In this document: positions 28,070-56,717 of the stretch, piece after piece
Layout of the letters: each line of letters opens with the position of its first letter
Position numbering within the stretch: position 1 is the stretch's first letter
Assembly (NCBI RefSeq): GCF_006345805.1
Contig: NC_043002.1
Span: 60,450,001 to 60,514,000 of the forward strand
Direction of reading: 5' to 3'
Length of the DNA: 64,000 nt
Source: Octopus sinensis
Lineage: Eukaryota
The notes under the pieces: generated by a model
What the model saw: the letters and a program-made list of their open reading frames with translations, nothing else
Database searches by the model: none
Told to the model about the DNA's origin: nothing
Program-made: the position numbers and the translations under genes

Positions 28070-28555
28070 AATCAAAATAAGCAACAGGGCTATCCAAGGC
28101 AGTGTAGTACAATAGTTTCATGCTACTTCATGTTATTAAACAATGTAAGTATTACATCAGTTTTAAAATGTAGAGCAATCTTCAGCCACATATAGATTTT
28201 TTTAATTAAATAGACAACGTACACTTTTATACTTATTCCATAGCCAACATTACAAAGAGTGTAGATCTATAGACAGAGAGGTTAATTTCATCATTAAGAA
28301 CATGGTAGTTGAAGGTCCTTCCTAATGGGCAGATTTTTTATCCATGAGTTCACTTTGTTATTTAGATTTATCAATGGGGAAGGGTTTCCTGAACCCCCCC
28401 AAAAAAAACAAATAAAAAAAGTCATCCCCATTGATAAATCTAAATAACAAAGTGAAATCAATGATAAAAAATCTGCAGATGGAGAAGGACCTTCTACTAC
28501 CATGTTCTTTAACTTTAGTACCATATTCATCTTAATCAAAATTTTGCTGAACACA
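28070..28555 (-). mobile_element. PLE-derived non-autonomous element with HHR (28103-28190)
   Basis: UGUGG-CUGAAGA-U-UGCU..AGCA-U-GAAA-CUAUUG-UA/CUACA. Homologous to the arms and flank of 56962-59522. (TA)n flanks. Confidence 0.75.
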
Positions 28556-29146
28556 CACACATATATATATATATGTATATATATATATATATATATATAT
28601 ATATATATTATATATATATATATATATATATATATATATATATATATATATATATATATTACTGGATTTACGTAATTCGCGTTGTGTGCGAGGTTAACGT
28701 AAGAGCATCGCTTTTCGAACAGATATATGATCAATTGTTTGTTGCTATCGTGAACGTTGCGTGTCTCATTCACCAGATATTTTCAATATGGAATTGATAT
28801 GCACGTTTCAAACAATGTTAGATTAAAATATTTGTGCGTATAATGTATATAATATGTATAGAACCAGAGAGCAGAAGCAGATGTTACGTTTGGGCTCACA
28901 GAAACGCATGTATACAGACATGCACATTAAAAATTGAGGGGGTTAGCTCAGAGCACGGGTGGATTGCCAGACAATCTGTTTCGACTTGATTTGGTTTCCT
29001 CAGAGACGAATATTCTGCATGTTCTCGGATAAGTCCAAAGTACGTGTTTTGATGCAGAAATAGGTAGAAGTAACATTTACTGATTTGTGCAAACATTAGG
29101 CGTTAGAATTAAATTACTATGCGCATTTTAAATTGCCTTATATTAA

Positions 29147-29353
29147 CCATTTGGCATTGAGAACGGCGATATCAGACCTATTTTGTGTTCAGAATAGCCC
29201 GGTCTGACCTCTCATATCAAAGCTACAATGAAATTCTGAAAATAAACAAGCGCATCATTGAAATTTCAAAGTTCTGAGAAAATTTGTGATTAATTCAAAC
29301 CAATGTCATTGAATAAGCATTAAGTTTGATTAAGTAATCCGAATACTAAAGAG
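29147..29353. mobile_element. piggyBac-type MITE
   Basis: TTAA|ccatttggcatt ... gaatactaaagag|TTAA: imperfect TIRs with TTAA on both sides. Confidence 0.5.
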
Positions 29354-29534
29354 TTAAAACGCTGATGTATGTATGCAATCCTATATAGGCGAATCAAAAC
29401 ATCATGTCTAGCTCACCACCTGCTTTCTGAGTTAACACCTGTGTTTTCTAAAGCACAAGTCTCTTTGCGAAGTTTTGTTTTGTGGCAAGACATTAGAGTT
29501 AGCACCGATTATACATTTGTATCGCCATTACTGC

Positions 29535-29830
29535 GGAGGCACATGGCCTAGTGGTTTAGAGCAGCGGAGTAGCGCTCGAGGGATCGCGGGTTCGAATCTT
29601 AGACCCAATGATGTGAGTGTTTATGAGCGAAACACTTAAGCTCCACGTGTCTCTGGCAGAAGATAATGGCGAACCTCTGCTGAGTCTTTCGCCAAAACTT
29701 TCTCTCACTCTGTCCTCCTGCATCTTGAAGCTCACCTGCGACGGACCGGCGTCCTGTCCAGGCGGGGAATCTATACGCCAAGGAAACCGGGAAACCAGCC
29801 CTTATAAGCCTGGCGTGACTCGAGAAGGAA
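29535..29830 (+). mobile_element. tRNA-derived SINE family C
   Basis: ggaggcacatggcctagtggtt (A box), gggttcgaatc (B box). Related to 48062 (+) and 60631 (-). Confidence 0.8.
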
Positions 29831-29974
29831 CAAAGAATAGTCATTACTGATTTTATAGAAAGAGGTATGTTAGCTCAGTGTTGAAGTTAGTTCTTAAATA
29901 TATCGTCTCGGTAATTTTTATGAACAAAGAATGTGTTTTGACTGCTATTTCAAGCATACAAACAAAATAGTCTG

Positions 29975-52730: not shown

Positions 52731-53334
52731 AAAGCCGACCAAAGCCTTGTGAGTAGACTTGATAGACGGAAACTGAAGACCGATAGGTTACGAGAACATA
52801 ACAGATAAAGAGCGGTTGTCATGCGGTGAGAGAGACAACACGCGCACACTCGCCTCCCCCATAAGCACACAAACACATAACAACAGGCCACTTGCATAGC
52901 TTTGACAAAGCCGAGGCTATGGTAAAACACAGTTGGTGAAGGTGCCACGCGGTGGGGCCGAAGATAGCAGTATCAAGTTTGAGCACATTTCTCAGCACAC
53001 AACAGCGTCTTCAGCCCCCCATCCCCATATATATATATATATATATATATAATATATATATATATATATGCAGGCACACACAGACACACACAGACACACA
53101 CACACACACACACACACACACACCACACACACACACAAACATAAATGTATTGCAAGGACAAAGAACAGTGAAGCCATTTTAAGGAGACAGAAATATCGCA
53201 ATGCAATTAATATGATAATACTTTAGAAGAAAAGATTTCTTTCGTTTGAACTTTTGAAAGAAACAAAGGAAATGAAAATGAGTGAGAACGACAACCTGAC
53301 AATAATCAGTAGGGGGAGACTCGGCCGAATATAG

Positions 53335-53790
53335 TGGCTGTATGGTAAGAAGCTTGCTTCCCAACCACATGGTTCCGAGTTCAGCTTCACTGCGTGGCAA
53401 TTTGGTTGAATGTCTTCTAATGTAAACTCGGGCCGACCAAATTCTTGTGTCGGATTTGGCAGACGGAAAATGAAAGAAGCTCGTTGTATACACACACACA
53501 CACACACACACACACACACACACACACACACACACATATATATATATATATATATATATATATATATATATATTATATATATATATATTATATATGTATA
53601 TATGTTATTTGTATCTGTGTGCCCCCCCCCCCACCATCTCTCGACAACCGACGTGTGTATGTTTACGTTTCCATCAATTAGCGGTTCGGCCAAAAGAGAC
53701 CATAGAATAAGTACTAGCCTTACAAATGATTAGTCATGGGGTCCATGGCTGCAATCAAATGAGAGAAACACCTAAATAATAAAACGATAA
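53335..53790 (+). mobile_element. SINE family A with expanded internal (CA)n(TA)n
   Basis: gtggctgtatggtaagaagcttgcttcccaaccac head through the ttagcggttcggc..gaataagtact tail. Confidence 0.8.
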
Positions 53791-55628
53791 AAGTATACAA
53801 ACACACTCATATATATGAATATATATATATTCTTTTATTCTTTTACTTCTTTCAGTCATTTGACTGCAGCCATAGGTAGAACAGAAAAGGCACAACAAAG
53901 GGTAACTGGCAAAATACAACATGCGGAAAAAAGAACGATAGCACGATAACGGCGAATAGGACAATGGAAGATATACGGTTCATTCGCAGCCAATTGCCTC
54001 CTCAGTTGTAGTCCGCAATGTCTACGTAGGTTCGCCTTCTTATCTTCGGTACTACTCTAAACCTGCGGGCCAGGGAGCTAAGCTAAAGCCATTATACCCA
54101 TGGGTAAGGCAAACGAATGTATATCTATATATACGAAAACAAATAAGTAAATATCAAAACGGGTCTTTCGACAATCGGACGAGGGTAATATATGAAATAG
54201 AATTAGACATCTATAATGGACAAACCCCTTTCGGCTTTATACAATAAAAGGAAAATTATTATACAATGACACGCGATATGTATATACGTATATATATATA
54301 TATATATATATATATATATATATATATATATATATATATATATATATATATATATAATATATATATATATATATATAATATATATATATATATTAATAAA
54401 TGAAATAAAACATATGCATATATATAAACATATATGTACGTACCTACCTCTATATGTACATATACACGCATATATGGGTACAGGACACCAAAGGGACGTC
54501 GAACACAAAGAGAAACGAAAACATAGACACAAACCAAAGGAACTGGACATTTTTTTAAAAACAACAAAAAATGGAGTACAGGACAATTAACATATATATA
54601 TGATGGGCTTCCTTCAGTTCACCAGATCCACTCAGAAGGCCTTGGTCAGCCCGAGGCTATAATAGCAGACACATACCCAAGGTGCCACGTGGTTGGGAAG
54701 CAAGATTCTTACCACACAGCCAAAATATTCGGCCGAGTCTCCCCCGACTGAATATTGTCACTTTGTCGCTCTCACCCAATTTCATTTTCTTTGTTTCTGT
54801 CAAAAGTTCAAACGAAAGAAATGTTTTCTTCCAAAGTTTTTAAATATCAATTGCATTAAGATAATTCTGTCTCCATAAAATGTGTGTGTGTCTCTGTGTG
54901 TGCGTGCATGTATATATATATTATATACACATATATATGTATTGGTGAATACGCTGCTGTGTGGAGAGAACTGTGCTCAAACTAATTGCCCCTGTAGCAC
55001 CTTCACCAATTGCCTTTTACTTAACCCGGCTTTGTCAAAGCTATGTAAGTGACCTGCTGTTATGTGTATGTGTTTGTGTTTGTGTGCAGAATTATATATA
55101 TATATATATATATATATATATATATATATATATATATATACAGAGGGAGAGAGAGAGAGAGAGAGAGAGAGAGATGGACAGATAGATAGATAGATAGATA
55201 GATAAGTAGATAAATAGATATATAGATAGGTAGATAGATAGATGGATATATAAATATACATACGACAGGGATCTTTAAGTCTCCATATCATGATTTGGTA
55301 TGGAGAATTAAATCCCACTACCAGCATTTGGTCGGTCTGTGGTTATAGATTACTTAGATTATTTGGATAAGCCATGTCTAATTTAGTAGCACCACCTGGA
55401 AGTGACTGTTCGAAAAGTTCTTTTCTTTTTTTTGTTTTTGTGCGTTCTCCTCTCTGTTTATGCATATATATATATGCATTATATATATGTATATATATAT
55501 ATATATATCACAATCAAGGAACGGCCATAATAGGCCATTCACCCACTAGAAATAACAGCCAAAGCTTCAACCGCAAAATAACATCAATTCCGTAAACCAG
55601 GAGAAAATTAAAAAACATTTACCCTGTA

Positions 55629-55734
55629 ATTTCTTATACGATGCACCGTTTCATCTACTGTTTAATGGTAAACTAACCTGATTAAATTAAATCAATCCAA
55701 TCTTCCATAGGCCCTTAGAATCATCAGTAAGAAT
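55629..55734 (-). ncRNA. Type I hammerhead ribozyme (inverted copy)
   Basis: Reverse complement of 56611-56717. CUGAUGA at 55727-55721. Confidence 0.85.
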
Positions 55735-56610
55735 AGCCAAGTCGGAACAGATATTTTCACGAGGCATTTCCGTCCCTGCCTCGGCAATATCTGACCTAAA
55801 ATTTTCAAATCATCGCACTCGCGCCAAATTTATCGGCAGCAAATAAATATAAGCCGCCGATTCCATTACGGAATTAACCAGAAAATTCATAATTAATCAA
55901 TATAGGGTGGCAAAAAATTTTGTAGAATTTTTTTGCCACCAGCGGCCTAGTGGGAAAAAATTCAATAGTCATATACCATTTTTAAGTTCAACATCACAAT
56001 CAAGGAACGGCCATAATAGGCCATTCACCCACTAGAAATAACAGCCAAAGCTTCAACCGCAAAATAACATCAATTCCGTAAACCAGGAGAAAATTAAAAA
56101 ACATTTACCCTGTAATTTCTTATACGATGCACCGTTTCATCTACTGTTTAATGGTAAACTAACCTGATTAAATTAAACAGTAGATGAAACAGATTAAACA
56201 GTAGATGAAACGGTGCATCGTATAAGAAATTACAGGGTAAATGTTTTTTAATTTTCTCCTGGTTTACGGAATTGATGTTATTTTGCGGTTGAAGCTTTGG
56301 CTGTTATTTCTAGTGGGTGTATGGCCTATTATGGCCGTTCCTTGATTGTGATGTTGAACTTAAAAATGGTCTATGACTATTTAATTTTTTCCCACTAGGC
56401 CGCTGGTGGCAAAAAAATTCTACAAAATTTTTTGCCACCCTATATTGATTAATTATGAATTTTCTGGTTAATTCCGTAATGGAATCGGCGGCTTATATTT
56501 ATTTGCTGCCGATAAATTTGGCGCGAGTGCGATGATTTGAAAATTTTAGGTCAGATATTGCCGAGGCAGGGACGGAAATGCCTCGTGAAAATATCTGTTC
56601 CGACTTGGCT

Positions 56611-56717
56611 ATTTCTTACTGATGATTCTAAGGGCCTATGGAAGATTGGCTTGATTTAATTTAATCAGGTTAGTTTACCATTAAACAGTAGATGAAACGG
56701 TGCATCGTATAAGAAAT
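56611..56717 (+). ncRNA. Type I hammerhead ribozyme with long stem II
   Basis: AUUUCUUA-CUGAUGA(56619-25)-U-UCUA..UUGGCUUGAUU/AAUCAGGUUAG..UAGA-U-GAAA(56694-97)-CGG(UGCA)UCG-UA/UAAGAAAU. Cut after 56709; perfect 8-bp stem I. Confidence 0.9.

What the first reader, a model, noticed from the sequence alone, without database searches (positions are those of the whole stretch)
28103..56717. Recurrent atypical HHR class: U10.1.U11.1 mismatch with GUA triplet in three unrelated families
Seen: HHRs at 28103-28190 (-), 41516-41568 (+) and 55629-55734/56611-56717 share CUGANGA-U..U-GAAA..GUA although their stems differ completely. Known: the usual 10.1-11.1 pair is purine-pyrimidine (mostly G-C) and supports activity. 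Inference: recurrence in unrelated backgrounds suggests an inherited or selected variant, perhaps attenuated or dimer-dependent, rather than decay.
Basis: partly seen in the sequence, partly recalled or inferred. Interest (0 to 1): 0.72.

Follow-up and report, generated by a model that had tools for sequence, protein, structure and literature searches.

The report
U·U hammerheads in Penelope-derived repeats
Three abundant jumping-repeat families in this animal genome carry a predicted self-cutting 'hammerhead' RNA with a U·U mismatch where a base pair normally sits; this variant is already in print, and here it comes and goes between sister families and is not tied to the GUA cut site, so it is likely a tolerated state rather than a separate ribozyme class.

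Summary
Observation confirmed: four type I hammerhead folds with U10.1·U11.1 and GUA lie at the stated coordinates (4 hits, 0 in 100 shuffles), and no other register removes the mismatch. All three belong to Penelope-like-element (PLE) derived repeats in (TA)n. It is not decay: U·U is in 99 of the first 100 listed of 4,640 site-2 matches and dominates the site-1 superfamily, whose stems covary around it. But the site-3 family is mostly canonical A10.1-U11.1 (96 of the first 100 listed of 2,737); U·U marks one young subfamily. Genome-wide, U..U cores are about as common as G..C cores, occur with GUA, GUU, GUC and CUA, and share lineages with G-C, A-U, G·U, A·C or A·A sisters; no significant link to A17 (8/11 vs 9/18 lineages, p=0.27). 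U·U is published: Perreault 2011; axolotl HHR_Amex2 (weak as monomer, efficient as dimer); a Hydra PLE motif with U·U and GUA in Cervera 2014's supplement. Cleavage was not tested here. The scan noted other 10.1-11.1 mismatches on other DNA. New: only the scale and the repeated switching.

The parts
28103..28190 (-). Site 1 type I hammerhead fold, U10.1·U11.1, long extended helix II, GUA; predicted cut between 28108 and 28107. This copy has a private change in helix III that removes the family's palindrome, so it is likely a dead copy
28071..28520 (-). Site 1 element: 5'-truncated non-coding repeat with an internal fold-back, its 3' end running into (TA)n; 1,645 first-look candidates in G000, best copies about 90% identical
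41516..41568 (+). Site 2 type I hammerhead fold, U10.1·U11.1, 3-bp helix II, GUA; predicted cut between 41561 and 41562. The outermost helix I pair comes from the inversion junction
41386..41583 (.). Site 2 insertion unit: head-to-head palindrome in (TA)n; minus arm (41386-41516) has the long 3' tail and lacks the 5' strand of helix I, plus arm has the short 3' end; family of at least 4,640 core matches
56611..56717 (+). Site 3 type I hammerhead fold, U10.1·U11.1, 68-nt helix II region, fully self-complementary helix III, GUA; predicted cut between 56709 and 56710
55629..55734 (-). Inverted copy of the site 3 hammerhead (same insertion, not an independent observation)
55507..56943 (.). Site 3 insertion unit: inverted pair of truncated arrays of a ~487-bp retrozyme-type monomer (cut-to-cut monomer 56223-56709, fold z = -5.25), in (TA)n, with the family's two fixed 3' ends
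56996..57076 (-). Decayed member of the site 1 superfamily (core changed at three places), U at both 10.1 and 11.1
59311..59391 (+). Decayed member of the site 1 superfamily (U10.1, A11.1, damaged core)

Best explanation
These are type I hammerhead motifs at the ends of Penelope-like retroelements and their non-coding derivatives (retrozymes), and U10.1·U11.1 is likely the best-tolerated mismatch at a pair that switches between G-C, A-U, G·U, U·U, A·C and A·A in sister families, leaving a ribozyme predicted to cut slowly and mainly as a dimer. Shown in sequence: family-level U·U at sites 1 and 2, a U·U subfamily of an A-U family at site 3, PLE-type insertion anatomy, and an RT+GIY-YIG element whose 3' end carries a U·U hammerhead. 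Inferred: the repeats are copied by PLE proteins; two hammerheads in a tandem transcript pair through the palindromic helix III; U·U keeps the stack under the G12·A9 pair well enough for reduced cleavage; a mutation in one source copy is then amplified to hundreds or thousands of copies. GUA is simply the commonest triplet among this genome's hammerhead lineages, whatever the 10.1-11.1 state.
For: Family states: site 2, 99 of the first 100 listed rows U·U with both positions left free; site 1, 28 of 36 BLAST copies U10.1 and 35 of 36 U11.1; site 3, 96 A and 4 U in the first 100 listed rows, yet 34 separate U·U loci. Six clusters hold U·U together with another state. Fold kept around the mismatch: in 12 hand-picked site-1 superfamily members 10.2-11.2 is paired in 12 of 12 (U-A, A-U, U·G, G·U) while 10.1-11.1 is paired in 1 of 12; 87% of cells paired against 25-55% for slid controls. 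PLE anatomy: (TA)n targets, inverted 5'-truncated arms, two fixed 3' ends about 100 nt apart in site-3 arrays, as described for PLEs (PMC8557442, PMC11167929). Two copies of an RT+GIY-YIG element (L207, L213) carry the U·U motif about 500 nt after the stop. Helix III self-duplex -5.8 to -17.5 kcal/mol against hairpin +2.4 to -1.4. Precedent: natural U10.1-U11.1, said to be the most active mispair (PMC3088659); axolotl HHR_Amex2, about 60,000 copies, 22% cleavage in 1 h as monomer, much more as dimer (PMC7229834).
Against: No cleavage or transcript was shown here. 5' ends of insertions do not pile up at the predicted cut (1 of 78 within 3 nt in the mostly U·U site-3 set, 1.1 expected), and site-2 copies run through the cut site, so their templates were uncut or religated. 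U·U is far more frequent than any other mismatch at lineage level (11 lineages against 6 for all other mismatches, in a sample biased towards U..U patterns), which selection for U·U would also explain. No protein-coding parent was found for the three window families themselves. The site-3 tree is star-like and does not resolve whether U·U arose once.
Confidence: 0.68

Rival explanations
1. U·U is a selected attenuator: non-autonomous elements converge on it because slower or strictly dimer-dependent cutting preserves the multimeric or circular RNA that PLE reverse transcriptase copies.
For: U..U cores total about 21,900 pattern matches (control 1,468) against about 22,900 G..C (control 971). 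U·U recurs in at least 11 lineages and is kept across site-1 subfamilies while the next pair flips. The young site-3 U·U subfamily reached at least 34 loci. Arrays carry mosaic shared variants, as multimeric templates would give.
Against: Paired sisters amplify as well or better (site 3 is about 96% A-U in the listed rows; 16,181 long G..C matches). A·C and A·A versions also spread. Tolerance predicts the same ranking of mismatches.
Confidence: 0.17
2. The U·U hammerheads are inactive passengers; PLE proteins copy these RNAs without needing cleavage, so the ribozyme has relaxed.
For: Catalytic mutants of a PLE hammerhead did not impair insertion in vitro (PMC11167929 passages); 8 of 9 Xenopus retrozyme dimers showed no cleavage (bioRxiv 10.64898/2026.07.22.740005); no cut-site pile-up in U·U arrays.
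Against: Core letters are invariant and helices I, II and III covary among U·U subfamilies; axolotl U·U motif does cut.
Confidence: 0.11
3. The mismatch is a register artefact: the U after A9 is the bulged nucleotide typical of PLE minimal hammerheads, or U·U is an inserted pair ahead of a true 10.1-11.1 pair.
For: A bulged base between 9 and 10.1 is the PLE consensus (PMC4209133), and one such motif lies in this window at 33063-33117.
Against: The bulge register gives 0 pairs at all four sites; sister families put G-C, G·U or A-U in the same two columns without any gap.
Confidence: 0.04

Closest known systems
Axolotl HHR_Amex2 retrozyme hammerhead (Cervera and de la Pena 2020, PMC7229834; read: passages and parts 2-4 of 6; Figure 4A and the supplement not seen)
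   Same: Type I hammerhead in a tandem non-coding repeat, U·U mismatch at the base of helix II, tens of thousands of copies, short helix III, weak monomer and efficient dimer activity
   Different: One family there; here many lineages with long helix II extensions and switching between states. Its triplet and exact numbering could not be seen; activity is measured there, untested here
Natural U10.1-U11.1 hammerheads (Perreault et al. 2011, PMC3088659; read: section 8 and passages; supplements searched, no hits for four motifs)
   Same: The same mismatch at the same positions; said to be the most active mispair (citing Ruffner 1990, not read)
   Different: Reported as a rare variation, and adjacent mispairs were normally a reason to reject a hit; here it is a major state
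PLE pseudo-LTR hammerheads (Cervera and de la Pena 2014, PMC4209133; read: parts 1-2 of 4, supplement file 2 parts 1-2 of 3 as machine-extracted text)
   Same: Type I, palindromic short helix III, variable stems, at PLE ends. Figure S3 text gives a Hydra Poseidon motif that reads U·U, U-A next, GUA, and a D. willistoni motif that reads U·U with AUA (my reading; columns are not kept)
   Different: Their consensus is a bulged base plus G10.1-C11.1 and they do not discuss U·U in the parts read
Animal non-LTR retrozymes as non-autonomous PLE derivatives (bioRxiv 10.64898/2026.07.22.740005; read parts 1-3 of 5)
   Same: Tandem or solo non-coding units with a type I hammerhead, co-occurring with EN+ PLEs
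   Different: Mostly vertebrates; 10.1-11.1 state not treated in the parts read

Membership tests
Type I hammerhead ribozyme | Core CUGANGA, GAAA, UH around three helices with helix I open | tested here: met
Type I hammerhead ribozyme | Base pair at 10.1-11.1 (usually G-C) | tested here: not met
   U·U at all four sites; a published tolerated exception
Type I hammerhead ribozyme | Helices supported by compensatory changes | tested here: met
   Site-1 superfamily, 8 of 25 pairs change on both sides, slid controls 1-3 (one search was the same count with helix I mistyped by one column); site 3 A-U/G-C at 10.5-11.5. Site 2 is too young to show any
Type I hammerhead ribozyme | Site-specific self-cleavage | not testable with these tools
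   Indirect footprint test inconclusive
PLE-associated dimer-type hammerheads | Short, self-complementary helix III | tested here: met
   the window's site-1 copy has lost it
Non-LTR retrozyme (site 3) | Tandem non-coding monomers of a few hundred bp, one hammerhead each, highly self-paired | tested here: met
   ~487-bp period, arrays up to about 8.3 kb, fold z -5.25
Non-LTR retrozyme (site 3) | Expressed as monomeric linear and circular RNA | tested here: inconclusive
   Only contigs of runs guessed to be RNA were available
EN+ Penelope-like element insertion units | 5' truncation, inverted arm, optional 3' tail, microsatellite target | tested here: met
   definition from PMC8557442 passages. 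Tails here are about 70-100 nt, longer than the 30-40 nt described
EN+ Penelope-like element insertion units | Homology to the end of an RT+GIY-YIG element | tested here: inconclusive
   Not found for the three window families in 8 long site-2 units or 50 GIY-YIG loci; found for another U·U family, L207/L213
Proposed 'U·U plus GUA' class | U·U co-occurs specifically with GUA | tested here: not met
   U·U with GUU, GUC, CUA; G-C with GUA common; 8/11 vs 9/18 lineages with A17, p=0.27
Proposed 'U·U plus GUA' class | U·U is the consensus in all three families | tested here: not met
   True for sites 1 and 2, false for site 3

The most novel reading that the evidence does not exclude
U10.1·U11.1 is an evolutionary dial: at least six independent PLE-dependent lineages in one genome have moved from a paired junction to U·U because it slows monomer cleavage while keeping dimer cleavage, which protects the circular or multimeric template; U·U hammerheads, rejected by standard descriptors, would then be close to half of the intact hammerheads in such genomes.
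Probability: 0.2. Interest if true: 0.6.

Novelty: new member of a known kind. Interest (0 to 1): 0.3.

Why it matters
The variant itself is known. The useful part is practical: descriptors that demand a 10.1-11.1 pair would miss a share of this genome's hammerheads comparable to the canonical G-C share, and the near-identical A-U, U·U and A·C versions of the site-3 retrozyme (about 3% apart) are a natural matched set for asking whether cleavage rate matters for PLE-driven transposition, which is open.

Tried and rejected
1. Rfam scan: none of the sites is flagged. 2. Start-codon idea (A11.2-U11.1-G12 spell AUG): read by eye, the frame stops within 3-5 codons at sites 2 and 3 and in a fourth family, and 11.2 is not always A; rejected. 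3. CpG decay of C11.1-G12 as the route to U11.1: CpG transitions only 1.7-fold above non-CpG (44/655 vs 175/4,504); a weak lead. 4. Cut-site footprint: 1 of 78, 3 of 23 and 1 of 23 array starts within 3 nt of the cut (1.1, 0.3, 0.3 expected; pooled p about 0.03, post hoc window); none among 65 site-2 starts (output cut in the middle). Inconclusive. 5. Rolling-circle signature: within-locus 4.8 vs between-locus 9.4 substitutions per monomer, with both array-fixed and mosaic variants; not decisive. 6. Site-3 trees: first one distorted by junction flanks, second star-like, one locus dropped. 7. Expression: no RNA holder listed; contigs cannot show ends. 8. Protein-coding parent of the window families: not found. 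9. Even sample of 599,900 nt: 18 descriptor hits (control 1), of which 2 U·U (one doubtful), 7 G-C (6 in one array), 2 A·C; too few for proportions. 10. Papers not held: Lunse 2017, two kinetic papers; Ruffner 1990 not read. Lunse 2017 and the unread supplement of PMC7229834 may describe U·U families further. Eight paper searches returned no genome-wide census of this pair.
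Full report
Observation. The window (G000:C6:60450001-60514000) is AT-rich animal DNA full of microsatellites. The four motifs are at the stated places. A descriptor gave 4 U·U/GUA type I folds against 0 in 100 shuffles, and neither the canonical nor the bulged-U register pairs at these sites. The two site-3 motifs are arms of one insertion, so there are three independent observations. The families share no sequence beyond chance.

What the three sites are. Site 3 is a ~487-bp tandem repeat with one hammerhead per monomer; 362 matches among 40 scored candidates, mostly 97-99% identical. 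Its arrays end at two fixed points about 130 and 230 nt after the predicted cut and start anywhere. Site 2 is a head-to-head palindrome of a non-coding element whose longer copies hold only simple repeats. Site 1 is an older repeat, about 90% identical between copies, with the same fold-back and two 3' ends. All sit in (TA)n. This is the anatomy described for EN+ Penelope-like elements (PMC8557442 passages; PMC11167929 passages). The genome has such elements: ORFs of 775 and 781 aa with RT and GIY-YIG matches and a CX4CxxC linker of the Neptune/Nematis kind (sequence; definition). One of them (L207, L213) carries a U·U hammerhead with a CUA triplet about 500 nt after its stop in both copies examined (L207 has one core change). 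I found no coding parent for the three window families, so their mobilisation by PLE proteins is inferred.

Is U·U the family state? Site 2: with both positions free, 4,640 matches (control 0), 99 U·U and 1 U·C in the first 100 listed. Site 1: 28 U, 7 G, 1 C at 10.1 and 35 U, 1 C at 11.1 in 36 BLAST copies (two loci overlap, so 2 of the G rows are counted twice); contigs of four public runs read G at 10.1 in 2-31% of depth and say nothing firm on 11.1. The wider superfamily gave 60 U·U of 73, but many of these were collected with U..U patterns. Site 3: the best BLAST loci are 31 U·U and 8 A-U of 39, which is a similarity bias; with 10.1 free there are 2,737 matches and the first 100 listed (all on contig C1) are 96 A and 4 U; public contigs read A in 68-100% of depth. 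An A·C subfamily also exists.

Is it decay? No. In 12 chosen site-1 superfamily members the core is invariant, 10.2-11.2 is paired in all 12 through four pair types, helix I changes on both sides, and 10.1-11.1 is U·U in 11 and G-C in 1. Paired sisters occupy the same columns without gaps, which fixes the register.

Genome-wide picture. Patterns with U at both positions gave 6,828, 5,457, 5,605 and 3,969 matches (controls 15, 204, 788, 461); patterns with G and C gave 6,762 and 16,181 (controls 548, 423). These counts have no stem check, include double-counted ends and some bulged-U motifs, use slightly different gaps and miss site 3, so they show only that the two states are of the same order. 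An even 600-kb sample is too small to refine this. Clustering 286 distinct hits from 445 held sequences, with singletons under score 12 dropped, gave 34 clusters; six contain U·U together with G-C, A-U, G·U or A·A. U·U occurs with all four Watson-Crick pairs next to it and with GUA, GUU, GUC and CUA. G-C families often use GUA, including the young PLE with a U3-A8 core. At lineage level A17 is found in 8 of 11 U·U and 9 of 18 paired lineages (p=0.27; small, pattern-biased sample, so a modest tendency is not excluded).

How it likely works. Shown: helix III is self-complementary and far more stable as an intermolecular duplex than as a hairpin. Inferred from the literature on PLE and amphibian hammerheads: two motifs in a multimeric transcript fold together and cut after GUA, giving monomers that a host ligase can circularise and PLE RT can copy. 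U·U would weaken helix II but leave activity: it is described as the most active mispair, and the axolotl U·U motif cuts 22% in an hour as a monomer and much more as a dimer. GUA fits the usual RUH site. Against activity in these particular families: no pile-up of 5' ends at the cut, and a PLE hammerhead was dispensable for insertion in vitro.

Comparison and novelty. U10.1·U11.1 is in print three times in what I could read: Perreault 2011 (section 8), Cervera and de la Pena 2020 (text; figure not seen) and, by my reading of machine-extracted text, Figure S3 of Cervera and de la Pena 2014 (Hydra PLE with U·U, U-A, GUA). Lunse 2017 was not available. Eight searches found no census of this pair. 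Earlier notes of this scan report C·A and A·A at the same pair in other genomes (unchecked). Verdict: real, inherited, known kind; the new part is the abundance and repeated switching. Interest 0.3.

Noticed in passing
window 3854-3934 (-) and 4109-4189 (+): Inverted pair of canonical G10.1-C11.1/GUC type I hammerheads of another abundant PLE-type repeat
   Followed up: partly
window 33063-33117 (+): Hammerhead with a bulged U after A9 and A10.1-U11.1, GUU, just downstream of a short frame (32622-32978) that resembles a PLE endonuclease end by eye; no Pfam support
   Followed up: partly
window 28964-29009 (-): Weak Rfam Hammerhead_1 match, 22.2 bits, below threshold
   Followed up: no
window 9021-12740 (-): Intact 1,239-aa reading frame with an RT domain, probably a LINE with a C-terminal restriction-like nuclease (recalled resemblance); decayed relatives at about 13876-15210
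   Followed up: no
site 2 family, e.g. window 41510-41522, L144, L159: Inversion junctions cluster at the 5' strand of helix I, 39-45 nt before the cut, around an AGCT palindrome, with copy-specific junction letters; by eye about 13 of 31 inverted pairs in the unbiased listing
   Followed up: partly
L182, L191, L195-L197, L206; same family as L209-L212: Young PLE family with several intact 781-aa frames and a hammerhead with the U3-A8 core swap, G10.1-C11.1 and GUA
   Followed up: partly
L078, L108, L211:6037, L378, L007:462, L028:949, L297: Families with A·C or A·A at 10.1-11.1
   Followed up: no
L315-L344: A 558-bp tandem retrozyme-type family with U·U, A-U next and GUU; one insertion (L190) begins exactly at the predicted cut
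   Followed up: partly
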